A stretch of 64,000 nt of DNA from Rickettsiales bacterium (GTDB lineage Bacteria; Pseudomonadota; Alphaproteobacteria; Rickettsiales; UBA6187): the NCBI GenBank assembly GCA_028223895.1, contig JAOIVE010000002.1, positions 1,463 to 65,462 on the forward strand. The letters are read 5' to 3'. Below are positions 8,547 to 36,473 of the stretch, piece by piece. The position numbers were made by a program, and so were the translations under genes. The notes under the pieces were generated by a model. That model made no database searches, had not been told where the DNA came from, and was given only the letters and a program-made list of their open reading frames with translations. Numbering within the stretch: the stretch's first letter is position 1; the number at the start of each line of letters is the position of its first letter.

Positions 8547-10036
8547 TTGAAAATAATTTACCAGCTTTGCAGGTTGTTATAACATTGGTGGCGGCTCCTA
8601 TTTGCGCTATGTTACCTCGTGCAAATATTGCATGGCTTTTCACTTCTATTGCAACTGCTTTGGCCTTTGCCGTCTCTATTATGTTGACTATATCGGTTTA
8701 TGGTGGGGAGGTTATTTCCTATGAGATGGGTAATTGGAAGGCTCCTTTTGGAATAGTTTATCAGGTTGATATGCTTTCGGCCTTGATGTTAGTTTTAATT
8801 TCCGGCATGGGTTTTATTGTTGCTTTGTATGGATACTCAAGTGTTAAAGCTGAAATAGAAAAAGAAAAGCGTCCTTTATTTTACTCTACATATCTTTTGT
8901 GCTTATCGGGTCTTTTGGGAATAGTTATAACTAATGATGCATTTAATGTTTATGTATTTTTAGAAATTTCATCTCTTGCCACATATGCTCTTATTGCTAT
9001 GGGTAAGGACAGGCGCGCTTTACTGTCATCTTTTGAATATTTAATTTTGGGAACTATTGGTGCTACCTTTATTCTTATAGGGATTGGCCTGATATATTCG
9101 ATGCTGGGAACTTTAAATATAAATGATATGGCTTCAAAAATATCTTTAGCAGAAGATTCTCTTCCAATAAAAGCTGCGCTGGTATTTTTTGTAATTGGTG
9201 TTGCTTTAAAGATCGCAATGTTTCCTTTGCATTTATGGTTGGTTAACTCCTATACAAATGCGCCGTCTATGGCGAGTTCTTTTCTGTCGGCAACTGCTAC
9301 TAAGGTTGGCATATATGTTTTGATACGTGTGATATACTCAATATTCGGAGCTGAGTATGTTTTTGCAGCTTTCCCATTGGGTAAAATACTTGTGACATTT
9401 GGTGTTCTTGCAATATTAGCAGGATCTATGGTTGCTATGTTTCAGGATAATGTTAAGCGCATGCTTGCATATTCTTCAGTTGCCCAAATTGGGTATATAA
9501 TTTTAGCTATAGGTTTGAAGTCAGAGTTGGCCTTGGCTGCTGCTTTAATTCATATTTGCGCGCATGCAATTTCAAAAGGTGCTTTATTCATGTCGGTAGG
9601 TTGCGTTTCGTTGCAAAAAGAAGGATCAAGATTTAGCGACTTTAAGGGCGTAGGAAAAGAAATGCCTATGACTATGATGGTATTTGTCATTGCCGGTTTA
9701 AGCCTTGTTGGAGTTCCTTTCACTGCCGGATTTATTAGCAAGTGGTATTTATTGCAGGCATCTTTAGGCGTAGATTTATGGCTGGTGTTTATATTGCTTA
9801 TTTTTAGCTCTCTTTTGGCTTTAATATATATTTGGAGAGTAGTTGAATATGCTTTCTTTATGGAGCCTGATAAAGGAAGCGTAGTTGCTAAAGAATCAGG
9901 GTTTTCTCTTTTGATTCCTATGTGGGCTTTGATAGTTGCGATAGTATTTTTTGGAGTATATTCATCACCAATTACTAAGATTGCTATGAGTATTGCTCAA
10001 TCTTTAATTGGCATAAACATATCAAATCAAGGATAA
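8543..10036 (+). CDS. mrpD: Mrp antiporter subunit D (NuoM/N-like proton-conducting subunit)
   Basis: 497-aa polytopic protein. PLHLWL...AP...S..LSA...K.G motif and the AYSSVAQIGY signature of complex-I antiporter-like subunits. Confidence 0.85.
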   Translation: MIENNLPALQVVITLVAAPICAMLPRANIAWLFTSIATALAFAVSIMLTISVYGGEVISYEMGNWKAPFGIVYQVDMLSALMLVLISGMGFIVALYGYSSVKAEIEKEKRPLFYSTYLLCLSGLLGIVITNDAFNVYVFLEISSLATYALIAMGKDRRALLSSFEYLILGTIGATFILIGIGLIYSMLGTLNINDMASKISLAEDSLPIKAALVFFVIGVALKIAMFPLHLWLVNSYTNAPSMASSFLSATATKVGIYVLIRVIYSIFGAEYVFAAFPLGKILVTFGVLAILAGSMVAMFQDNVKRMLAYSSVAQIGYIILAIGLKSELALAAALIHICAHAISKGALFMSVGCVSLQKEGSRFSDFKGVGKEMPMTMMVFVIAGLSLVGVPFTAGFISKWYLLQASLGVDLWLVFILLIFSSLLALIYIWRVVEYAFFMEPDKGSVVAKESGFSLLIPMWALIVAIVFFGVYSSPITKIAMSIAQSLIGINISNQG

Positions 10037-10051
10037 GGGACGAAAAGGACT

Positions 10052-11536
10052 ATGGAAGAAAATATAGTTCAGTTAGGTTGGGTTTTTGCATTTCCTTTGG
10101 TTGCATTTCTTGTTGCATCAATCATAAGGAACGCCAATCTTCGTGATGCATCTATAATATTAATTGCAGTTGGTATGTTTGCCTATGTGGTTAATATATT
10201 ACTGGCATTTAACAGTGGTAGCTTATCCGAATTTATTTTGTGGGATATGCTGGGCGGCATACAGATAGCATTTTCTGTTGAACCTCTGGGGATGATCTTT
10301 GCGCTTGTTTTGTCATTTTTATGGGGCGTCACTAGTCTTTATTCTATAGGATATATGCGCGGTAATAAGGAAAAAAGTCAGGGGCGTTTTTCTGCATTTT
10401 TTGCGTTATCTATATTTGCAGCTCTTGGTATAGCTTTTGCAAAAAACATGTTCACATTATTTATATTTTATGAATTGCTGACTTTATGTACATATCCGCT
10501 TGTAACTCATCATGGTAACGATGAAGCAAAGCGAGGAGGGCGGGTATATCTTGGTATATTAATATTTACTTCTGTTGTACTTTTATTACCGGCGATAATA
10601 ATTACATATAATGTTTCTGGAACGTTAGACTTTGCAGAAGGTGGTATTTTAGCAGATAAAATTACACCAATAATGACGGGTATATTGCTGGCGTTATATA
10701 TGTTTGGAATAGGCAAGGCTGCTCTTATGCCTATTCATCGCTGGCTGCCTGCTGCTATGGTTGCCCCAACTCCGGTTAGTGCGCTTCTTCATGCGGTGGC
10801 GGTTGTTAAAGCGGGTGTATTTACAATTTTAAAGGTGATAATTTATATATTTGGTTATGATAATTTATATAAATTAATTCAGCAGGAATTCTGGAGCGCG
10901 GGGTGGCTGATTTATATATCAGGTTTTACCATAATTGCTGCCTCTGTAATTGCATTAAATCAGGATAATTTAAAAAGGCGTCTGGCATATTCGACTGTTA
11001 GCCAGCTATCTTATGTTATTATGGCCGCTGCTATATTGGTGCCAAAATCGATAGTTGCCGCAGCATTTCATATAGCTGCACATGCATTTGGTAAAATTAC
11101 ATTATTCTTTGCTGCTGGTGCTATATATACTGCTTCAAAGAAAAAGAAGGTTAGTCAGTTATCGGGAATAGGAAAGCGCATGCCAATTACTATGACTGCA
11201 TTTGCTATTGCATCTTTTTCGATGATAGGAATACCGCCAACAGTTGGTTTTTTATCTAAATGGTATATGTTAGGCGGCGCATTGGAGCAGGAGCAGTTTT
11301 TTGTTTTGATAGTCATTGCGGCAAGTACGATTTTAAATGCTGGTTATTTTCTTCCGATTGTTTACAAGGCATTTTTTGAGAATGAAAAGCAAAGTAGCGG
11401 TGTTGCTAACTATAAAAATCATGGTGAGGCGCCGATTGCTATATTGATAGCAATTTCTATAACCGCTTTTGCAGTGTTAGCGTTATTCTTTGTTCCGGGA
11501 TATTTCCTTGATTTGGCAGGTGATTTAGCAAAATAA
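10052..11536 (+). CDS. mrpD: Second MrpD/NuoM/N-like proton-conducting subunit
   Basis: HRWLPAAMVAPTPVSALLHAVAVVKAG and AYSTVSQLSY motifs. 494 aa, polytopic. Confidence 0.85.
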   Translation: MEENIVQLGWVFAFPLVAFLVASIIRNANLRDASIILIAVGMFAYVVNILLAFNSGSLSEFILWDMLGGIQIAFSVEPLGMIFALVLSFLWGVTSLYSIGYMRGNKEKSQGRFSAFFALSIFAALGIAFAKNMFTLFIFYELLTLCTYPLVTHHGNDEAKRGGRVYLGILIFTSVVLLLPAIIITYNVSGTLDFAEGGILADKITPIMTGILLALYMFGIGKAALMPIHRWLPAAMVAPTPVSALLHAVAVVKAGVFTILKVIIYIFGYDNLYKLIQQEFWSAGWLIYISGFTIIAASVIALNQDNLKRRLAYSTVSQLSYVIMAAAILVPKSIVAAAFHIAAHAFGKITLFFAAGAIYTASKKKKVSQLSGIGKRMPITMTAFAIASFSMIGIPPTVGFLSKWYMLGGALEQEQFFVLIVIAASTILNAGYFLPIVYKAFFENEKQSSGVANYKNHGEAPIAILIAISITAFAVLALFFVPGYFLDLAGDLAK

Positions 11537-13651: not shown

Positions 13652-14959
13652 ATGATTCCTCGTTATTCTAGAGAAGAGATGGTTTCTATATGGGAGCCAA
13701 AGAATAAATTTCGTATTTGGTTTGAGATAGAAGCTTATGCTTGCGATGCGCAGGCAAATTTAGGTGTTGTACCAAAAGAAGATGCGGAAAATATCTGGAA
13801 AAATGCGCCAAAAGAGTGGACTGATGAGGATATAGAAAAAATTGATGCTATTGAAAGAGTAACTAAGCACGATGTGATAGCATTCTTAACTCATCTGGCA
13901 AGTTATATTGGCGATAGTAGCCGCTTTGTTCATCAGGGAATGACAAGTTCAGATGTTCTGGATACTTGCCTTTCAGTGCAGTTAAAGCAGGCGGCAGATT
14001 TGTTGCTTGAAGATATGGATAAGCTACTTGTAGCGTTGGAAAGGCGTGCTAAAGAAACTAAAGATATGGTTTGTATAGGTCGCAGCCATGGCATTCATGC
14101 TGAGCCTGTAACTATGGGGCTAAAATTTGCAAGATTTTATGCTGAAATGAAACGCAATAAAAAGCGTTTGGAAGATGCTCGTGCTGAAATATCTGTATGT
14201 GCGATATCTGGCGCGGTTGGAACTTTTGCTAATATTGATCCATCAGTTCAGGATTATGTAGCGCAGAAGTTGGGTTTATCTTCAGAAACTGTTTCGACGC
14301 AAGTTATCCCGCGCGACAGACATGCTATGTTTTTTGCTGTTTTGGGTGTTATAGCAAGTTCAATCGAGAATGTTGCTGTAGAAATTCGTCATATGCAGCG
14401 TACGGAAGTTTTGGAGGCAGAGGAGTTTTTCTCTAAGGGGCAAAAAGGAAGTTCTGCTATGCCTCATAAGCGTAATCCTGTTTTGACTGAGAATTTGACA
14501 GGTTTGGCAAGGCTTGTTCGCAGTGCTGTAACTCCTGCTTTAGAAAATGTTGCGCTTTGGCATGAGCGTGATATTTCACATTCTTCTGTTGAACGTATGA
14601 TTGGCCCTGATGCTACTGTAACTTTAGATTTTGCATTGGCTCGCTTGACCAATGTTATAGATAATCTGGTTTTATACCCAGAGAATATGAAAAGAAATAT
14701 GGATTCTATGCGTGGTTTGGTTTTCTCGCAAAGAGTATTGCTAGAGCTTACACAAAAAGGTGTGAGCCGTGAGGATTCTTATAAGCTGGTACAAAGAAAT
14801 GCAATGAAGGTTTGGGAAGAGGGTAAGGATTTCTTAACAGAGCTAAAAAGTGATATAGATGTTACTAAATATTTATCTTCTGAAGAATTAACATCGCTCT
14901 TTGATCTTAATTTTCATACAAAAAATGTGGATAATATATTTAATAAGGTTTTCGCATAG
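13652..14959 (+). CDS. purB: Adenylosuccinate lyase
   Basis: MIPRYSREEM...IW N-terminus and the GSSAMPHKRNP signature loop of the fumarase/ASL superfamily. Confidence 0.96.
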   Translation: MIPRYSREEMVSIWEPKNKFRIWFEIEAYACDAQANLGVVPKEDAENIWKNAPKEWTDEDIEKIDAIERVTKHDVIAFLTHLASYIGDSSRFVHQGMTSSDVLDTCLSVQLKQAADLLLEDMDKLLVALERRAKETKDMVCIGRSHGIHAEPVTMGLKFARFYAEMKRNKKRLEDARAEISVCAISGAVGTFANIDPSVQDYVAQKLGLSSETVSTQVIPRDRHAMFFAVLGVIASSIENVAVEIRHMQRTEVLEAEEFFSKGQKGSSAMPHKRNPVLTENLTGLARLVRSAVTPALENVALWHERDISHSSVERMIGPDATVTLDFALARLTNVIDNLVLYPENMKRNMDSMRGLVFSQRVLLELTQKGVSREDSYKLVQRNAMKVWEEGKDFLTELKSDIDVTKYLSSEELTSLFDLNFHTKNVDNIFNKVFA

Positions 14960-15017: not shown

Positions 15018-15094
15018 GGCGGGGTAGCTCAGCTGGTTAGAGCGGAGGAATCATAATCCTTAGGTCCGGGGTTCAAGTCCCTGTCCCGCTACCA
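15018..15094 (+). tRNA. tRNA with CAU anticodon (tRNA-Met; a lysidine-modified tRNA-Ile2 cannot be excluded)
   Basis: A hand-folded 77-nt cloverleaf. Acceptor GGCGGGG/TCCCGCT, D arm GCTC-AGCTGGTTA-GAGC, anticodon arm GAGGA-ATCATAA-TCCTT, T arm CGGGG-TTCAAGT-CCCTG, encoded CCA. Confidence 0.9.
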
Positions 15095-15121: not shown

Positions 15122-15193
15122 CTAGATAAATGGCACAAAGGGTATGCATGCTGAGATTGCCAGAGCGCAAGCTATTAAAATAATAATTCTCAT
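15122..15193 (-). CDS. Candidate 23-aa lipoprotein-type micro-ORF (MRIIILIACALAISACIPFVPFI)
   Basis: Not in the ORF track (too short). AAGGA SD 7 nt upstream of the ATG. Signal-peptide-like sequence with lipobox ISAC. Same strand as, and just downstream of, the MNIO/DUF2063 pair. Confidence 0.25.
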   Translation of the reverse strand: MRIIILIACALAISACIPFVPFI

Positions 15194-15247: not shown

Positions 15248-16033
15248 TTATTTTTTATTTATATCAAGACTGAAGTCAACTAAGACTCCCATTTGTATAT
15301 ATTTATTTATATTTGTAACCAAATCAAAATTTTCATTTATATCAGTTGCTGAATCAAATGCTTGATATAAGTTATTGTTATTAGATAATTTATCTAAGAA
15401 GTTATATTCGCAATCTTTTAATATTATAACATTTACCTGCATATCAGGGCGGGTGAGCATAAGTTTGATATTATCATCTTTTTTAAAATTATTATCTAAT
15501 TCTCCACTCATATCTTTTCTTGAAACATGCCATTTATGAAAAACTTTATAATCGCAAGAAAAAAACCTGGTAGATGGATTTAGTGTAAATTTGAGTTCAG
15601 AGTAGTCATCGGGTAATATTTTTGAGAATTTATCTACATCAAATGAAGGTGATTTATCGCAAAATATACTTTCTTGATAGAGACATTCAAGCCTTGCTAA
15701 GTTTGCAATATATTCTAAATCTCCCACCGGTTCAAAATTATCTAAAAAATCAGGAAAGTCACTCCCATATTCATACATATTAGGCTTTCTAGGAGGGTTT
15801 TTTTTAATATATTCTCTGCATGTAAAGTCAAAAAATTCTTTTCCGAGAGTTTTTTCTACCGCCGGAAAAGTCATTTTCATGGGAGATAATATATTACCAA
15901 TGCAGCTATCTTGATATATTCCAATTAAACTTTTAGCGCTAATATATTTGCTATTAAAATAATCTTTTGTAGATAATTTTTCATCTAATATATCATTTAT
16001 AAAATTTTGCTGAATTTTTTTTAGGCTTGTCAT
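15248..16033 (-). CDS. DUF2063-family protein (BufC-like partner of MNIO enzymes)
   Basis: Motifs IYQDS, FPAVEKTLGKEFFDF, YEYGSDFPDFL and ANLARLECLY match the DUF2063 pattern. Sits immediately downstream of a DUF692 gene, as in known MNIO operons. Confidence 0.8.
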   Translation of the reverse strand: MTSLKKIQQNFINDILDEKLSTKDYFNSKYISAKSLIGIYQDSCIGNILSPMKMTFPAVEKTLGKEFFDFTCREYIKKNPPRKPNMYEYGSDFPDFLDNFEPVGDLEYIANLARLECLYQESIFCDKSPSFDVDKFSKILPDDYSELKFTLNPSTRFFSCDYKVFHKWHVSRKDMSGELDNNFKKDDNIKLMLTRPDMQVNVIILKDCEYNFLDKLSNNNNLYQAFDSATDINENFDLVTNINKYIQMGVLVDFSLDINKK

Positions 16034-16036
16034 TTT

Positions 16037-16915
16037 TTACGCCGCCTTATTTTTATTTATAATATTTATTATTTTTTCAGCTTTATTTTTTTCTTCTAGT
16101 AAAATATCTAAGTCTGGTATGTCATTATCCCACTCAATCAATGTGGGGGTGTTAGCAAATTTTTTGGCAGCCTTTTTATATAAATCCCAAACTGGCTCAT
16201 ATACAGGACGGCTGTGGGTGTCAATTAACACATCCTGTCCTTCGACTTTTTTTGCTTCAAAGCCGGCAAGGTGCATTTCCTTGACTATATTTACAGGAAT
16301 TTGTTCAAGGTAATTTTCTGCATCAAAATCATGATTATAAGAGCTGACAAAAATATTATTTATATCCAGTAATATTCCACAGCCAGTTTTTTTAGCCAGG
16401 CTAGATAAAAACTCCCACTCATTTATATTAGAGTTTTTATATGAAATATAGGCAGAAGGATTTTCGATCAATATTTGCCGATTTAAAAAATTCTGAACAT
16501 AGTTGATATTTTCTGCAAATATATCAAAGGCTTCCTGTGTGTAAGGTATGGGCAGCAAATCAGGTAAATAGATTTTTTCTTCTGACGTACTCCACGATAA
16601 ATGATCTGAAACTAAAGATGGTTCAAAATAATCGATCGTAGCCTTAATTTTCTTTAAATGCTCTTTGCGAATTGAACAATTGGTTGATGCTGATCCTAAA
16701 GACATACCTATAGAATGGGCTGATATAGGGTAATCTCTTCTGATTTTTTCAAGATGTTTAGAAGGAGGGCTTCCTAAAGCAAAATAGTTTTCTGTGTGAA
16801 TTTCAAGCCATGGGACATTTGGCTTATCTTCTATGAAATTTTTAAAATGCTGATGACGCAGCCCAAGGCCAACACCTGAGATATTATTTTTACAAAAAAT
16901 GGCTTCGTCAATCAT
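16037..16915 (-). CDS. DUF692 / MNIO-family (MbnB/BufB-like multinuclear non-heme iron oxidative) enzyme
   Basis: GVGLGLRHQHF, WLEIHTENYF, SAHSIGMSLGS, VSDHLSW, LIENPSAYI, GCGILLDINNIFVSSYNH and HLAG motifs typical of UPF0276/DUF692. Confidence 0.88.
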   Translation of the reverse strand: MIDEAIFCKNNISGVGLGLRHQHFKNFIEDKPNVPWLEIHTENYFALGSPPSKHLEKIRRDYPISAHSIGMSLGSASTNCSIRKEHLKKIKATIDYFEPSLVSDHLSWSTSEEKIYLPDLLPIPYTQEAFDIFAENINYVQNFLNRQILIENPSAYISYKNSNINEWEFLSSLAKKTGCGILLDINNIFVSSYNHDFDAENYLEQIPVNIVKEMHLAGFEAKKVEGQDVLIDTHSRPVYEPVWDLYKKAAKKFANTPTLIEWDNDIPDLDILLEEKNKAEKIINIINKNKAA

Positions 16916-27261: not shown

Positions 27262-30084
27262 ATGAGTGGTGGTAAAGAGTTTGGTTCTGAAGATGTGCGT
27301 GAAGAGGGAGCTGGTGTCGGCGGTGGTGTTAATTCTGAAGCTAGGCAGATAGCAGTAGAAATTCCTGATGAACAAGACCAACCAGATGTAGATCTTGAAC
27401 AAGTTGTAGCTCAGGAACGGGAAACTGGTGGCCATGTTGCGATTGAAGTTGATCATTCTGCTGCAACCTTAGAAGAGTTATTAAAAAGGCCAAAAGGTGA
27501 CCATGGTGCATTTATTAATAAACTAAGATCTTACTCAAAAGATGATGGTGAAGAGCTTGTTGCGGCTGCAAAGAAGATTTTAGAAGCATCAAAAAGCTTT
27601 GCTGTAGCGTCATATGGTTATGCTAGTAAGAAAATTTCAGAATACAAATCGGGTGTTAAGCCTGTAGGTGATCTGAGTGAGCCTTTAATTGATGATGATT
27701 ATGATTATGATGAAGTTGAGTTGGAAGAAATTGTTTCTAGTTATCCAGAGTATAGTGAAGAAACAAAGGTAAAAACTGAAGATTATGTTGTTGGAGTAAT
27801 AAACCCTGATAAGCAGCAAGAATTGCTTGAATTATTAAAAGAAGCAAAAGAGATTAATAAGGAAGGTGGCGGCAGAGGTAAGCGCATAGCGCGAGAAGTG
27901 CTTAAAAGCTTTGGGCCTTCATTTTATTTTGGGCGTGCAGGTGTGTTTGCAGGTTTTTCGTCTGCTGGTGTTATAGGTAGTATGATGGGTGGTATTGCTG
28001 CGACGACAGCGGGTTTAGAGGCTTACGAATATTGTAAATATAAATTTACTGTAGAAGAAAATGAAGAAAATTTCAAAAGAATGAAAGGTCTTATCAATAA
28101 AGGATATTTAACTCGTGATACATTAGAGTTCCTTACGCAGGCTGAAATATATAAGAAGCCATTATATCCATATTCTTTTGACGCTAAAACAAGAGTAGAT
28201 ATGGTTAAAAATGCATTGTCAGTATTTTTTACGGCAGTAGGTGGCCCTTCTGCTTTTCTAAAAGCAGGAGCGCTTGCTAACATTGGAAGGTTTTTTAAAG
28301 ACAAGGAAATAGGCAAGCGTGTAGATGAAATGACATTGGATATGGGATCTATATTGGGAGAATATTGTACAGATCTTGTTTTATCTGAATCTGGTGTGGA
28401 TGAAGATGAAATTGAAAATAAAAAAGTTCCAATAGAAAGATTAGGGTTATTTTCACAAATCATGCAGCTTATGCGTACTGCGGAAATCGTTCAGGCTCTT
28501 AAAAAAGGGGATGAAGAAGAAAAAGATGTTAAGCCTTCAGGTGATGAGTTAGATGTTGAAGAAGACGCTAAACTTTCAGATGCTAAACTTAAGCTCAGAC
28601 CTGGTTTCTCCGGACATCTTGATCAAAAAGATAATCCTAAGAATGCGCTTTCATCTATTTTAGATGATACTTTAGCTAAGGTAGGTGACGAAGGGTCTTA
28701 TTTTGCAAAAGTCATTAATTCATCTACTAGATCTTTACGCACGTGGGGTAATATTTCACTTGTGTTATCACAATTATTAAAAACGACAATTTCTTATGCA
28801 GAGGAGAGCACTCTTTTAAAAGTTTCTCCTTTGCTTGCGTCTATAGGAGCAACTTTAGTTGGAGCTTTAGTTAATTATAACAAAGATGAGAAGCAATATA
28901 GTAAAGAAATAACTGCGGTGATGGAAAAAGTACACAAAGAAGGAGGTGGTGCTGTAACTCTTAAAGATTTATCTACTTTATCTAGATTGGATGAATATAT
29001 AGACCTCGAAGAATCAGGTGTTCAGGCCGCAGGTGACTTTACTCTTGCTGCTGCTATTTATAGTTTGGATAATTTTCTCTCTAGCAGTCCTTCAAAGCTT
29101 GGTTTTCTAGGAGAATTGGGTGCCACAGTAGCATCTGTTCCTTCTTATTCAGAAAAATCACATTTTGATGAAGCACTTTCCAGATTAAATACTCAATTGG
29201 CAACAGTTGCCGCCACTGATGATAGTGTTTTTGATAGCTTAGCTGAAGAAAAGGAAACAATAGAAAAAGATTTTGTTCAGCAGTTAAGGAATAATCCGCA
29301 AGTTGTTGAGAAGATCAAAAAAAGCATGCAAAATTCAAAATATCGTACCAGCTCTTCTATGGTTGCAGGAATTGTTGGTGAGATAGTTAGCAATGGAATT
29401 TTAGGAGAGGATTCTGCGTTGCCGCCTATAATAGGTGGTGCGTCAACGGCAGGTGTATTTGCTCTGTTTGTGGTAGGAAAAGTCTTAAAAAATTCACTTT
29501 ATAAAGAGGACTCAGATTCAGAGCTTCACTTTGATAATGAAGTAGATCGAGTTCTTTCTTCTAAAGATTCTATTAAGGAGTTTTTAAAGGAAATTGATAT
29601 TGCTAAACTACATAAGCAAGAAGTTATAAATCCTAACCTTAGCAGAAGTGAAAAGGCGGCTGATCCATTAACGCTTAAGGGTCTAGCCTTGCTTGCTGGG
29701 TTTGTTGCGGTCGGGTTTACCGGAACTTCAGTTGCATTGGAGGCTTCTGGTGTTTCTGATAATTCTTTTGATCCAAGTTATTCAATTTCAATGATTAACG
29801 CCTTACCATTTTATCATGGAAGTTTGCCTCTAATGCAAGATAGGGTTGATCCTTCGCTTAGAAGAATGGAGCATCTTGCAAATTCAGTTGTTCGTGGGTT
29901 AGAAAAATCTAAATTATCTGAAGCTGACATCACTCCGGCTCCAAGTGAAGCGAGTCTTTCTGATGTTGATGTTTCTAGTGATATTGGCGAAGAAGGTGAA
30001 GAACTAGGTGCTGGTGTTGGTTTCGCTGCTGTTGAAGAAGAAAAGCGAGCGGGAAGGTCGGATTCTAGCCAAATAATGCCGTAA
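27262..30084 (+). CDS. 940-aa protein of unknown function; acidic termini and several Gly/Ala-rich hydrophobic (possibly bilobed TM) segments; effector/membrane-protein candidate
   Basis: A strong AAGGAAG SD. Long uninterrupted ORF with no family recognised and no N-terminal signal peptide. Hydrophobic blocks include GRAGVFAGFSSAGVIGSMMGGIAATTAGL and SSMVAGIVGEIVSNGILGEDSALPPIIGGASTAGVFALFVVG. Confidence 0.7.
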   Translation: MSGGKEFGSEDVREEGAGVGGGVNSEARQIAVEIPDEQDQPDVDLEQVVAQERETGGHVAIEVDHSAATLEELLKRPKGDHGAFINKLRSYSKDDGEELVAAAKKILEASKSFAVASYGYASKKISEYKSGVKPVGDLSEPLIDDDYDYDEVELEEIVSSYPEYSEETKVKTEDYVVGVINPDKQQELLELLKEAKEINKEGGGRGKRIAREVLKSFGPSFYFGRAGVFAGFSSAGVIGSMMGGIAATTAGLEAYEYCKYKFTVEENEENFKRMKGLINKGYLTRDTLEFLTQAEIYKKPLYPYSFDAKTRVDMVKNALSVFFTAVGGPSAFLKAGALANIGRFFKDKEIGKRVDEMTLDMGSILGEYCTDLVLSESGVDEDEIENKKVPIERLGLFSQIMQLMRTAEIVQALKKGDEEEKDVKPSGDELDVEEDAKLSDAKLKLRPGFSGHLDQKDNPKNALSSILDDTLAKVGDEGSYFAKVINSSTRSLRTWGNISLVLSQLLKTTISYAEESTLLKVSPLLASIGATLVGALVNYNKDEKQYSKEITAVMEKVHKEGGGAVTLKDLSTLSRLDEYIDLEESGVQAAGDFTLAAAIYSLDNFLSSSPSKLGFLGELGATVASVPSYSEKSHFDEALSRLNTQLATVAATDDSVFDSLAEEKETIEKDFVQQLRNNPQVVEKIKKSMQNSKYRTSSSMVAGIVGEIVSNGILGEDSALPPIIGGASTAGVFALFVVGKVLKNSLYKEDSDSELHFDNEVDRVLSSKDSIKEFLKEIDIAKLHKQEVINPNLSRSEKAADPLTLKGLALLAGFVAVGFTGTSVALEASGVSDNSFDPSYSISMINALPFYHGSLPLMQDRVDPSLRRMEHLANSVVRGLEKSKLSEADITPAPSEASLSDVDVSSDIGEEGEELGAGVGFAAVEEEKRAGRSDSSQIMP

Positions 30085-30112: not shown

Positions 30113-30141
30113 TTGACCTTTTGTACCAAAAATTGTACCAT
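30113..30141 (+). promoter_or_regulatory. Promoter candidate for the 35-aa peptide gene
   Basis: TTGACC-N17-TACCAT. Followed by the perfect inverted repeat TACAGTA-CA-TACTGTA (30147-30162) and an AAGGA SD. Confidence 0.45.
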
Positions 30142-30184
30142 AATGATACAGTACATACTGTAAAATATATAAGGATGTATCATT

Positions 30185-30292
30185 ATGAAAAATAAAATAT
30201 TTTTGGCACTTTCTTTGGCCGTATTGGTAGCTGTAATAGCTGAACCTTCATTAGCTAAAGATGGTTGCGGATTTTTAGGCTGCGGTTGGTAG
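30185..30292 (+). CDS. 35-aa secreted Cys-containing peptide precursor candidate (MKNKIFLALSLAVLVAVIAEPSLAKDGCGFLGCGW)
   Basis: Below the ORF-track length cut-off. AAGGA SD 9 nt upstream. Textbook Sec signal (n-region MKNK, h-region, c-region SLA|K). Own promoter-like element and a strong terminator directly downstream. Confidence 0.6.
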   Translation: MKNKIFLALSLAVLVAVIAEPSLAKDGCGFLGCGW

Positions 30293-30316
30293 TCCTATAA
30301 ATTTGAAAAATAAAAG

Positions 30317-30348
30317 AGCCTGGCTATTTATTTAGCCGGGCTTTTTTA
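30317..30348 (+). terminator. Rho-independent terminator after the 35-aa peptide ORF
   Basis: AGCCTGGCTA-N6-TAGCCGGGCT stem (one G-U pair) followed by TTTTTT. Confidence 0.8.
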
Positions 30349-30491
30349 CATCTGTAACAATCTAAATATTATTCTGATATTTACTAAGCATTTTCCTGTG
30401 GAAAACTAAAATTATAAGGTTGTCGTCAGGCTATATTAATTATAGTCTGTTTGATACTGCCTTGTTTTTTAAGTTACATGTGAGTTACATA

Positions 30492-31217
30492 ATGCAAGAT
30501 CTTGTGAAGATTGAAGAGGTTAGTAGGTCATTTGGGGATATTCTGGCCGTAAATAATATATCTTTATCGGTTAAAAAAGGTGAAGTTCTGGGTTTTTTAG
30601 GGCCAAATGGAGCTGGTAAATCTACAACTATGCGCATGATTACAGGTTATATCTCACCAACCAGTGGAAAAATATCGGTTTGTGATCGTGACATTTGTGA
30701 AGATCGTATAAATGCCCAAAAACATATAGGCTATCTTCCTGAGGGCGGCCCTCTATATGAAGATATGACGCCTGCTTCGTTTTTATCTTTTGTGGCAGAT
30801 GTGCGTAAACTGGATAATCAGTTAAAAAAGGCACGTATTGAGTATGTTGTAGAAAACCTGCATCTGTCAAAAGTCTGGTATCAGAATATTGATACTTTAT
30901 CTAAGGGTTATAAAAGGCGGGTTGCTTTGGCGCAGGCAATTTTGCACGACCCTGATGTGTTAATACTTGATGAGCCAACTGATGGGCTGGATCCAAACCA
31001 GAAATATGAAGTTCAGAATCTTATTTCTTCAATGTCTGCAAATAAATCAATAATAATATCAACTCATATTTTAGATGAGGTTGAGGCATTATGCTCAAGG
31101 GCAATTATTATTGATAATGGTAAAATTGTAGCTTCTGGGACTCCTAAGCAGCTGGTTGGAAAATCAAAAAATCTGACTGAATCATTTAGAAAAATAACAA
31201 GTAAAAAAGTGGCATGA
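30492..31217 (+). CDS. ABC transporter ATP-binding protein (ABC-2/GldA-like)
   Basis: ATG at 30492 (the track start 30420 is too long). Walker A GPNGAGKST, signature LSKGYKRR, Walker B LILDEPTDGLD. Confidence 0.92.
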   Translation: MQDLVKIEEVSRSFGDILAVNNISLSVKKGEVLGFLGPNGAGKSTTMRMITGYISPTSGKISVCDRDICEDRINAQKHIGYLPEGGPLYEDMTPASFLSFVADVRKLDNQLKKARIEYVVENLHLSKVWYQNIDTLSKGYKRRVALAQAILHDPDVLILDEPTDGLDPNQKYEVQNLISSMSANKSIIISTHILDEVEALCSRAIIIDNGKIVASGTPKQLVGKSKNLTESFRKITSKKVA

Positions 31218-36005: not shown

Positions 36006-36113
36006 TTATGATGCTTATGTAAAAAACTCTTGTACCAAAAAACATTTAGTCTAGAGTGCATCTTATTTTTTAATGTTATTTTTATATTGCTGTGTGTTTA
36101 GAAGGATAAAAAT

Positions 36114-36473
36114 ATGAAATTGGAAAAAGCATCAAAGATGCTATCTGCTTTGGCTCAAGAGACTAGAATTCAAATTTATAAGTTATTGGTGCAAGAAAGT
36201 GATGATGGTCTTTCTGCCGGTTCTATAGCAGAAATATTGCAGATTCCTTCGGCGACATTATCTTTTCATTTATCTCAATTAACAAATGCCGGATTGTTAA
36301 AAGCTCGTAAAGACGGGCGCACAATATATTATGCGGCAAAATATAAGGCAGTTAAAAAACTAATGAAGTTCTTAAATGAAAACTCATTTAAGAAAAGGGA
36401 AGTTGCAGCTGCTATGAATTCTCAGCTATCTTCATCATATTCTCAAGATGAAGAAAATGACGAAGATCTTTAA
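36114..36473 (+). CDS. ArsR/SmtB-family transcriptional regulator with acidic tail
   Basis: LSALAQETRIQIYKLL...SAGSIAEILQIPSATLSFHLSQLTNAGLL winged-helix pattern. Confidence 0.88.
   Translation: MKLEKASKMLSALAQETRIQIYKLLVQESDDGLSAGSIAEILQIPSATLSFHLSQLTNAGLLKARKDGRTIYYAAKYKAVKKLMKFLNENSFKKREVAAAMNSQLSSSYSQDEENDEDL

What the first reader, a model, noticed from the sequence alone, without database searches (positions are those of the whole stretch)
30185..30292. Stand-alone gene for a 35-aa secreted peptide with a GCG-x3-GCGW core
Seen: ATG at 30185, AAGGA SD, and its own promoter-like element (TTGACC-N17-TACCAT). A strong terminator follows at 30317-30348. The product is MKNKIFLALSLAVLVAVIAEPSLA|KDGCGFLGCGW. 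That is a textbook Sec signal followed by an 11-residue core with two Cys in GCG contexts and a C-terminal Trp. It is too short for the ORF track. Inference: this may be a disulfide-cyclised or enzymatically modified peptide, such as a signal, a metal-binding peptide or a bacteriocin-like molecule. A signal-peptide-bearing Cys peptide is the kind of substrate used by bufferin-type MNIO systems. The window contains an MNIO pair lacking a precursor 14 kb away, so a split RiPP system is a testable hypothesis.
Basis: partly seen in the sequence, partly recalled or inferred. Interest (0 to 1): 0.62.

Follow-up and report, generated by a model that had tools for sequence, protein, structure and literature searches.

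The report
Unannotated orphan secreted two-cysteine mini-peptide gene
A 35-codon gene that the public annotation missed probably encodes an exported 11-residue peptide with two cysteines, but it has no detectable relatives and nothing ties it to the peptide-modifying enzyme pair 13 kb away.

Summary
The ORF at 30185-30292 is real sequence and looks like a gene. It has an AAGGA ribosome-binding site 9 nt upstream and a signal-peptide-like N-terminus. Its codon statistics match real genes (rank 1 of 53 small ORFs), its GC is 0.38 against 0.21 and 0.29 in the flanks, and a strong hairpin terminator follows (-24 kcal/mol). Chance gives about 0.02 ORFs with a signal peptide and a ribosome-binding site per window. 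NCBI did not annotate it.

It is an orphan. No homologue turned up among 1.84 billion representative proteins, 5.8 billion clustered proteins, plasmids, phages or metagenome contigs. The organism, a 'Rickettsiales bacterium' MAG, has no close sequenced relative. The ORF sits in a variable slot between ribBA and an ABC-transporter operon, and distant relatives carry other genes there.

The MNIO/DUF2063 pair is real and has no adjacent precursor. It scores as a BufB bufferin maturase, and the two relatives that have an adjacent precursor use BufA1 (DUF2282) proteins. The peptide and the pair share no upstream motif. About 11 unrelated genes lie between them, and they are on opposite strands.

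One resemblance remains. The core has the CG-x3-CG spacing of the copper-binding oxazolin repeat, so the split-RiPP idea stays open at about 12%.

Verdict: probably a real orphan secreted-peptide gene, function unknown, modest interest.

The parts
30113..30141 (+). Sigma-70-like promoter candidate TTGACC-N17-TACCAT (9 of 12 positions)
   Evidence: Weak evidence: the region has about twice as many promoter-like sites as shuffles.
30121..30143 (+). Tandem direct repeat TTGTACCA(A/T)AA, two copies 12 nt apart, overlapping the -35/-10 spacer. Possible operator.
   Evidence: Another intergenic exact copy lies at 36030, upstream of an ArsR-type regulator gene.
30139..30187 (+). Perfect 12-nt inverted repeat CATAATGATACA / TGTATCATTATG. 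The 3' arm contains the ATG; the SD and a 7-bp palindrome (30147-30162) lie in the loop. It could mask the start codon in read-through transcripts.
   Evidence: -13.4 kcal/mol, z = -2.95; P about 0.009 for this region; about 1 expected across the whole window.
30171..30175 (+). Shine-Dalgarno sequence AAGGA, 9 nt before the ATG
30185..30256 (+). Codons 1-24: Sec-type signal peptide. n-region MKNK, h-region IFLALSLAVLVAVIA, c-region EPSLA. Predicted signal peptidase I cut SLA|KD, with VIA|EP as an alternative.
   Evidence: Sequence features. Weak HMM hits to the signal-peptide parts of Sar8_2, LPAM_1, Myticin-prepro and GAS_sig_Nterm, all within residues 1-25. SignalP was not run.
30257..30292 (+). 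Codons 25-35 plus the stop: predicted mature peptide KDGCGFLGCGW, with two Cys-Gly pairs, C-x4-C spacing and a C-terminal Trp
   Evidence: coding statistics for the whole ORF
30311..30348 (+). Intrinsic terminator: a 16-bp hairpin running into a T-tract, with an A-tract upstream (bidirectional type). It probably also ends the 940-aa gene's transcript.
   Evidence: -24.2 kcal/mol, z = -5.7. (flagged on the minus strand).
27262..30084 (+). Upstream 940-aa orphan ORF (NCBI MDB2414282.1, hypothetical). No terminator lies between it and the peptide ORF, so the two may be co-transcribed. Together they fill a variable slot between ribBA and the ABC operon.
16037..16915 (-). MNIO enzyme, BufB-type bufferin maturase. 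Context only; no link to the peptide was shown.
   Evidence: PF05114, 338 bits. (NF050167 MNIO_BufB, 362 bits against a cut-off of 310).
15248..16033 (-). DUF2063/HvfC_N partner protein of the MNIO. Context only.
   Evidence: PF09836, 66 bits

Best explanation
This is a genuine but unannotated, lineage-restricted small gene. It encodes a 35-residue pre-peptide that the general Sec pathway exports.

**Proposed mechanism**
1. The gene is transcribed from its own weak sigma-70-like promoter, or by read-through from the 940-aa gene. Transcription ends at the strong hairpin at 30311-30348.
2. Translation starts at the AAGGA/ATG. In read-through RNA the ATG may be masked by the 12-bp stem.
3. The product is too short for co-translational targeting, so it is exported post-translationally.
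4. Signal peptidase I cuts after Ala24 (SLA|KD).
5. This releases the 11-mer KDGCGFLGCGW into the periplasm. There the two cysteines (C-x4-C) either form a six-residue disulfide ring or act as a dithiol ligand for a soft metal such as Cu(I).

The peptide acts without MNIO modification. Its biological role (signal, metal buffer or toxin) is unknown.

**Shown:** ORF, SD, terminator, coding-like statistics, signal-peptide-like pattern, no homologues found, not annotated.

**Inferred:** transcription, translation, export, cleavage site, disulfide or metal chemistry.
For: - The ORF, SD spacing and upstream in-frame stop are as described.
- The codon log-likelihood is 10.8 bits. It ranks 1 of 53 small ORFs, matches real genes, and the frame is the best of six. 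GC by codon position is 0.46/0.43/0.26 against 0.48/0.37/0.27 in genes. ORF GC is 0.38 against 0.21 and 0.29 in the flanks.
- Chance expectation per window is 0.023 for a signal peptide plus SD, and 0.0017 when two Cys are also required.
- Weak HMM hits fall only on the signal-peptide portions of unrelated secreted families.
- The terminator is strong.
- A separate promoter-like site (TTTACA-16-TATTAT, 10 of 12) lies downstream of the terminator and would serve the ABC operon. The ORF is therefore not simply that operon's leader.
- A crude filter for a signal peptide plus Cys recovers the known BufA1 genes in L002/L003. In the window it picks only this ORF and one 23-aa ORF in intergenic DNA.
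Against: - No homologue was found anywhere, so purifying selection cannot be shown.
- Signal-peptide-like ORFs alone are common in this AT-rich DNA (0.27 per window). Across a whole genome, about 0.4 chance ORFs with a signal peptide and SD are expected.
- The RNA of the ORF body is moderately structured (z = -2.6), and the start codon sits in a 12-bp stem. Both fit a non-coding RNA.
- NCBI's pipeline did not call the ORF.
- A 35-aa Sec substrate is unusually short for a Gram-negative bacterium.
- The terminator may simply belong to the upstream 940-aa gene.
Confidence: 0.5

Rival explanations
1. It is not a protein-coding gene. The ORF is a chance reading frame in the 3' region of the 940-aa gene's transcript, or in a small structured RNA. 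The hairpin is simply that gene's terminator.
For: - No homologue exists and the ORF is not annotated.
- No terminator lies between the 940-aa stop and the ORF.
- The RNA is structured: z = -2.6 for the ORF body and -4.7 for 30148-30352.
- The ATG is paired in a 12-bp stem.
- Signal-peptide-like ORFs arise at 0.27 per window by chance.
Against: - Codon statistics and position-specific GC match real genes and rank 1 of 53.
- GC rises to 0.38 exactly over the ORF.
- Adding the SD at ideal spacing lowers the chance expectation to about 0.02.
- No Rfam family reaches its threshold.
Confidence: 0.28
2. This is a split RiPP system. The peptide is a minimal, stand-alone bufferin/oxazolin-like precursor. 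In the cytoplasm the BufB-type MNIO and its DUF2063 partner, encoded 13 kb away, convert its two Cys-Gly sites to 5-thiooxazoles. Sec then exports the product as a one-site Cu(I) chelator.
For: - The MNIO pair is intact and lacks an adjacent precursor and DoxX.
- The core has the same CG-x3-CG spacing as the oxazolin unit AEGKCGEGKCG. In that unit each pair of modified Cys binds one Cu(I), and a single-repeat truncation is still modified (PMC11252979).
- Buf_EGKCG precursors can be as short as 31 aa. A 'CxxxxC' Sec-signal precursor family exists. Many precursor genes are not adjacent to an MNIO (PMC12452194).
- In 64 kb it is the only intergenic ORF of at least 30 aa with a signal peptide and Cys.
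Against: - The MNIO is a BufB equivalog and not HvfB (362 bits against 310, versus 226 against 360).
- MNIOs 58-63% identical that do have an adjacent precursor use BufA1. Areas of the MNIO similarity network map to precursor families (PMC12452194).
- BufA1 recognition needs its folded core (PMC11626156).
- The peptide hits no precursor HMM.
- The gene order bufABC is reported as strictly conserved. Here the peptide is 13.3 kb away, on the opposite strand, with about 11 unrelated genes between.
- The two upstream regions share no motif.
- Four related precursor-less MNIO loci have no such peptide within 10 kb on either side.
- A canonical BufA1 could lie in the unseen rest of the genome.
Confidence: 0.12
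3. It is a small single-pass membrane protein with an uncleaved signal-anchor (N-in, C-out). It might be a type I toxin-like peptide whose translation is held in check by the stem over the start codon and by antisense transcription.
For: - It is 35 aa with one hydrophobic helix of 15-19 residues after MKNK.
- The ATG is sequestered in a 12-bp stem.
- Promoter-like sites lie on the minus strand at 30209-30182 and 30191-30164, facing the 5' region.
- The transcript is structured.
Against: - There is a good -3/-1 cleavage motif (S-L-A) with Pro at -4.
- Promoter-like hits are abundant in this AT-rich stretch.
- No antitoxin RNA family or terminator for an antisense RNA was found.
- The inverted repeat is only marginally significant across the whole window.
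Confidence: 0.07
4. It is a regulatory leader peptide (upstream ORF) that controls the downstream ABC-2/GldG transporter operon by attenuation at the hairpin.
For: A short ORF is followed 19-25 nt later by a terminator, 140 nt upstream of the ABC ATPase start.
Against: - No alternative anti-terminator pairing was found.
- A ribosome at the stop codon would not reach the GC stem.
- A separate promoter-like site follows the terminator.
- Orthologous ABC operons in L004 and L005 have no such ORF.
- The Rfam leader hits are far below threshold and cover only the hairpin.
Confidence: 0.03

Closest known systems
Buf_EGKCG/oxazolin precursors (HvfA of Haemophilus influenzae; PMC11252979, PMC12452194)
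   Same: - Both have a Sec signal peptide followed by Cys-Gly sites.
- The spacing is identical: two Cys-Gly pairs as C-G-x-x-x-C-G.
- The shortest reported family members are 31 aa, the same signal-plus-one-unit size as this peptide.
- Stand-alone precursor genes are known.
   Different: - There is no E-G-K before the Cys (DG-C-G and LG-C-G instead), no repeats, and no HMM match.
- Oxazolin genes normally sit beside HvfB/HvfC/DoxX.
- The MNIO here scores as BufB, not HvfB.
Bufferin 1 precursors (BufA1, DUF2282/PF10048)
   Same: - Both have a Sec signal peptide.
- In BufA1 the modified Cys sit in small-residue contexts (NDCG, SCAG in L002).
- BufA1 is the expected substrate class of the BufB-type MNIO in this window.
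   Different: - BufA1 has a folded core of about 60-70 aa with four conserved Cys, and the central pair is spaced C-x8-C.
- This peptide has an 11-aa core, two Cys, and no PF10048 similarity.
'CxxxxC' family of MNIO-associated Sec or lipoprotein-signal precursors (PMC12452194; cluster X in PMC13056109)
   Same: A signal peptide plus a conserved C-x4-C motif, proposed as the MNIO modification site.
   Different: - Those genes lie directly beside MNIO/DUF2063/DoxX, often with a Lactamase_B_2 gene.
- Their sequences could not be retrieved, so similarity beyond the motif was not tested.
Methanobactin precursors (MbnA)
   Same: A very short core with two Cys that become one Cu(I) site after MNIO action.
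   Different: - MbnA has a leader and not a Sec signal.
- It is encoded next to MbnB/MbnC.
- The MNIO here scores only 62 bits against the MbnB model, whose cut-off is 325.
Sec-exported signalling pro-peptides of Gram-positive bacteria (Phr/CSF type). This comparison comes from general knowledge.
   Same: Pre-peptides of about 38-44 aa that are little more than a Sec signal plus a short active C-terminal peptide, each encoded by its own small gene.
   Different: - Phr genes sit next to their Rap receptor genes.
- They lack Cys pairs.
- They occur in Bacillota. No receptor gene is evident here.

Membership tests
Bufferin/oxazolin-type MNIO precursor (any subfamily) | N-terminal Sec (or lipoprotein) signal peptide | tested here: met
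   The n/h/c regions and the -3/-1 rule are satisfied. Weak HMM hits fall on signal-peptide segments only. This is heuristic; SignalP was not available.
Bufferin/oxazolin-type MNIO precursor (any subfamily) | Match to a precursor profile (PF10048 BufA1, or NCBIfam precursor models) | tested here: not met
   There is no hit even at E <= 10. tblastn of the L002 BufA1 proteins against the window finds nothing. [quoted passage not shown]
Bufferin/oxazolin-type MNIO precursor (any subfamily) | Gene immediately upstream of the MNIO gene (bufABC order) | tested here: not met
   The peptide is 13.3 kb away on the opposite strand, with about 11 unrelated genes between. Non-adjacent precursors are documented but are the minority (PMC12452194).
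Bufferin/oxazolin-type MNIO precursor (any subfamily) | MNIO and DUF2063 (PME-type 1) genes present in the same genome | tested here: met
   Both ORFs are intact.
Bufferin/oxazolin-type MNIO precursor (any subfamily) | Cys converted to 5-thiooxazole (-4 Da per Cys, absorbance near 305 nm) when co-expressed with the MNIO and its partner | not testable with these tools
   Needs heterologous co-expression and mass spectrometry.
Buf_EGKCG/oxazolin | Repeated E-G-K-C-G motifs | tested here: not met
   The core is KDG-C-G-FLG-C-G-W. The CG-x3-CG spacing is shared, but the EGK residues and the repeats are absent (PMC11252979).
Buf_EGKCG/oxazolin | Associated MNIO of the HvfB type | tested here: not met
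   The HvfB model gives 226 bits against a cut-off of 360. The BufB model gives 362 bits against 310.
Attenuator leader peptide | Alternative terminator/anti-terminator pairing coupled to ribosome position, conserved upstream of the regulated operon | tested here: not met
   A single dominant hairpin forms and no competing structure appears. The ORF is absent upstream of the orthologous operons in L004 and L005.
Type I toxin small membrane peptide | Overlapping or adjacent antisense RNA gene, and toxicity on expression | tested here: inconclusive
   Only generic minus-strand promoter-like sites were found. No Rfam antitoxin reaches threshold. Toxicity cannot be tested here.

The most novel reading that the evidence does not exclude
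The peptide is the smallest kind of Sec-exported MNIO product. It would be an 11-residue, single-site copper-binding 'mini-oxazolin/bufferin', encoded as a stand-alone gene and matured in trans by a BufB/BufC pair that has lost its adjacent BufA1. That would show that BufB-type enzymes accept a bare CG-x3-CG unit. It would also suggest that the many precursor-less MNIO pairs have tiny unannotated substrates elsewhere in the genome.
Probability: 0.12. Interest if true: 0.6.

Novelty: new variant of a known kind. Interest (0 to 1): 0.3.

Why it matters
If the gene is real, it is an example of the very short secreted-peptide genes that annotation pipelines skip. It comes from an uncultured Rickettsiales-like bacterium, where such peptides could mediate host or metal interactions.

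If it also proved to be an MNIO substrate, it would define a minimal Sec-exported copper-binding RiPP. It would also suggest where to look for substrates of the thousands of MNIO enzymes that have no recognised neighbouring precursor.

As things stand it is a single orphan ORF with no conservation data, so its value is as a candidate for a cheap heterologous-expression test.

Tried and rejected
**Searches for homologues**
- An exact-sequence look-up of the peptide in gene-position and cluster indexes found nothing.
- The word-indexed search of 5.8 billion proteins required padding the query with five X. No candidate was found.
- Exhaustive phmmer against 1.84 billion representatives gave one hit, E = 3.7e-5. 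It is an 825-aa protein with 8 stretches matching only the hydrophobic region, and I rejected it as low complexity.
- The search for related loci refuses a 35-aa query.
- The genome-contig scan for GCGxxGCGW-stop was too loose. It saturated at 120 rows, all from genomes of 45-76% GC and none ending a short ORF with a signal peptide.
- The metagenome scan for GCGFLGCGW-stop gave three copies of one sequence lying antisense inside a 288-aa ORF. That is a chance match.
- tblastn against plasmids and phages found nothing.

**Tests of other readings**
- Remnant of a larger gene: rejected. There is an in-frame stop 12 nt upstream, stops in all frames downstream, and only about 200 nt to the next gene.
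- BufA1 or DoxX elsewhere in the window: none found.
- Hidden precursors near related precursor-less MNIO pairs: none found.
- Shared operator between the peptide and MNIO upstream regions: none. The longest common word is 9 nt, equal to chance.
- Fur-box or SigF-promoter readings of the upstream repeats: considered from memory and dropped as over-interpretation.
- Rfam: only sub-threshold hits driven by the hairpin.

Full report
**1. The observation**

The window carries the ORF exactly as reported. It runs from ATG 30185 to TAG 30290-30292 and encodes MKNKIFLALSLAVLVAVIAEPSLAKDGCGFLGCGW. An in-frame TAA at 30170-30172 makes this the first possible start. AAGGA lies at 30171-30175, 9 nt before the ATG.

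The promoter-like TTGACC-N17-TACCAT is present and matches 9 of 12 positions. It carries little weight, because this AT-rich stretch has 10 promoter-like sites against 4.8 +/- 1.9 in shuffles.

A 16-bp stem at 30311-30348 runs into a T-tract, with -24.2 kcal/mol, z = -5.7, and no shuffle folding as well.

One correction applies to the motif. The core is GCG-x2-GCGW, equivalently CG-x3-CG or C-x4-C, not GCG-x3-GCGW.

The MNIO pair is real. PF05114 is at 16037-16915(-) and DUF2063 at 15248-16033(-). The 145-nt gap upstream of it has no room for a precursor. The window has no BufA1 or DoxX homologue.

**2. Is it more than chance, and is it coding?**

I trained codon tables on the window's long ORFs.
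- The mini-ORF scores 10.8 bits, or 0.31 per codon. It ranks first of 53 small ORFs outside long genes.
- That score sits at the 46th percentile of 35-codon chunks of real genes (mean 11.2, sd 5.8). It beats the other five frames of the same DNA.
- GC by codon position is 0.46/0.43/0.26, against 0.48/0.37/0.27 in genes.
- GC jumps from 0.21 and 0.29 in the flanks to 0.38 in the ORF.

I also simulated intergenic DNA with a second-order Markov model.
- A signal-peptide-like ATG ORF of 30-80 aa appears 0.27 times per window, so that feature alone is cheap in AT-rich DNA.
- Requiring an SD motif lowers the rate to 0.023. Requiring two Cys in the tail lowers it to 0.0017.
- The Cys criterion was chosen after seeing the ORF, so the fair figure is about 0.02 per window, or a few tenths per genome.

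Together with the independent codon and GC evidence, I put the probability of a real coding gene at roughly 0.65-0.7.

Pfam and NCBIfam give only weak hits. All are confined to residues 1-25, and all fall on the signal-peptide parts of unrelated secreted families. That supports the signal-peptide reading and rules out membership of any known family.

NCBI did not annotate the ORF. The flanking proteins are MDB2414282.1 and MDB2414283.1, which are consecutive accessions.

**3. Where it sits**

The window comes from an NCBI 'Rickettsiales bacterium' MAG contig of 74,096 bp. Its nearest relatives are distant: the GldG-like protein downstream finds nothing above 51% identity.

Those relatives show a conserved order of ribE, ribBA, a variable gene, then ABC ATPase, permease, GldG, DUF4340 and QueH. 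The variable slot holds different genes in different genomes:
- a 433-aa orphan on the other strand in L004;
- a DUF1236 protein in two JGI contigs;
- the 940-aa orphan plus the mini-ORF in this window.

Neither L004 nor L005 has a comparable small ORF upstream of the ABC operon. The peptide therefore belongs to a lineage-specific insertion and not to the transporter operon.

No terminator separates the peptide ORF from the 940-aa gene, so 'stand-alone' is not established. It may be the second cistron of that transcript and may also have its own promoter.

A perfect 12-nt inverted repeat (30139-30150 and 30176-30187) would pair the ATG in any transcript that starts upstream of 30139. Its chance probability is about 0.009 for this region, but about one such repeat is expected somewhere in the window.

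**4. Homologues**

None was found.
- The exact look-ups were empty.
- The word-index search was empty.
- Exhaustive phmmer over 1.84 billion representatives gave one low-complexity hit.
- Plasmid and phage six-frame searches were empty.
- The strict core pattern in JGI metagenomes matched only an antisense stretch inside a larger gene.
- My loose pattern in genome contigs saturated on GC-rich chance matches and is only a weak negative.

Because no close relative of this organism is available, the absence of homologues does not show that the ORF is spurious. It does mean that selection on the ORF cannot be demonstrated.

**5. The MNIO hypothesis**

*Points in its favour*
- MNIO substrates of the bufferin mega-cluster nearly all carry Sec signal peptides.
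- Buf_EGKCG/oxazolin precursors can be as short as 31 aa.
- A 'CxxxxC' precursor family exists.
- A sizeable share of precursor genes are not next to an MNIO.
- About 4,000 MNIOs have no recognised adjacent precursor. All five points come from PMC12452194.
- The oxazolin unit AEGK-C-G-EGK-C-G has the same CG-x3-CG spacing as DG-C-G-FLG-C-G-W. In oxazolin each pair of modified Cys binds one Cu(I), and a single-repeat truncation is still modified (PMC11252979).

*Points against it*
- The MNIO here passes NCBIfam's curated cut-off as a BufB bufferin maturase (362 bits against 310) and fails as HvfB (226 bits against 360).
- The two relatives that have an adjacent precursor both use BufA1/DUF2282. 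One is an alphaproteobacterial MAG 63% identical, with two BufA1 genes and DoxX. The other is Colwellia piezophila, 58-60% identical.
- The landscape paper reports that areas of the MNIO similarity network map to precursor families.
- For BufA1 the signal peptide is dispensable, and recognition involves the folded core (PMC11626156).
- The peptide shares no upstream motif with the MNIO operon. It lies 13.3 kb away on the opposite strand, behind about 11 unrelated genes.
- Four related MAG loci (L001, L129, L130, L131) also have precursor-less MNIO/DUF2063 pairs, and none has a similar peptide within 10 kb on either side. Those four form their own clade, and the window's enzyme is a separate lineage.

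The simplest reading is that the pair's BufA1 gene lies in the unseen part of the genome. I give the split system about 0.12.

**6. Other readings**

- *Non-coding RNA or chance ORF (0.28).* This fits the lack of homologues, the moderately structured RNA and the paired start codon. The codon and GC evidence contradicts it.
- *Uncleaved small membrane or type I toxin-like peptide (0.07).* This fits the size, the single helix and the masked ATG. There is no evidence for an antitoxin.
- *Attenuator leader for the ABC operon (0.03).* This is unlikely. I found no competing structure, a separate promoter-like site follows the terminator, and the orthologous operons have no such ORF.

**7. Verdict**

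The gene-like reading is supported but unproven. The MNIO link is an open, low-probability hypothesis that one co-expression experiment could settle.

The best classification is an orphan, unannotated small secreted-peptide gene. It resembles minimal oxazolin-type precursors in architecture only. Membership of that family fails on the profile match, the gene order, the EGKCG motif and the enzyme subtype.

Interest is modest, at 0.3.

Noticed in passing
window 15122-15193 (-): There is a second mini-ORF of 23 aa, MRIIILIACALAISACIPFVPFI. It has an AAGGA SD 6 nt upstream and a lipobox-like ISAC. It lies 54 nt downstream of the DUF2063 gene, after a hairpin with a T-run, and just before the convergent tRNA-Met at 15018-15094(+). 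It would be a mini-lipoprotein with an 8-residue mature part. Nothing comparable lies downstream of DUF2063 in L001 or L129-L131.
   Followed up: partly
window 30492-31217 (+): The ABC ATPase of the GldG-type transporter operon is 241 aa (NCBI MDB2414283.1). Its orthologues in L004, L005 and two JGI contigs are 313-319 aa. The window protein lacks the C-terminal domain of about 75 aa.
   Followed up: partly
window 30121-30143, 36030-36040, 13767-13777: Exact copies of TTGTACCAAAA occur in tandem in the peptide's promoter region. Another copy lies about 75 nt upstream of an ArsR/SmtB-family regulator gene (36114-36473), and one lies inside purB. With one mismatch allowed there are 11 matches against 3.8 +/- 2.2 expected. 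This could be a shared operator or promoter element.
   Followed up: partly
window 27262-30084 (+): This is a 940-aa acidic orphan protein with four Gly/Ala-rich hydrophobic segments. It has no Pfam, NCBIfam or PDB match and forms a singleton cluster. It fills a variable slot between ribBA and the ABC operon that holds different genes in relatives. It may be a lineage-specific membrane or effector protein.
   Followed up: partly
L001, L129, L130, L131 (MNIO at 10001-10870 in each): A clade of MAGs carries BufB-like MNIO + DUF2063 pairs with no adjacent precursor and no DoxX, each in a different neighbourhood. Their MNIOs are 75-89% identical to each other. In L130 a copper P-type ATPase gene lies nearby, separated from the pair by a peptidase M3 gene. 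Where their substrates are encoded is unknown.
   Followed up: partly
window 30139-30187 (+): A perfect 12-nt inverted repeat brackets the SD and includes the peptide's ATG. A 7-bp palindrome, TACAGTA-CA-TACTGTA, sits in its loop. It could be a translational mask in read-through transcripts or a protein-binding site.
   Followed up: partly
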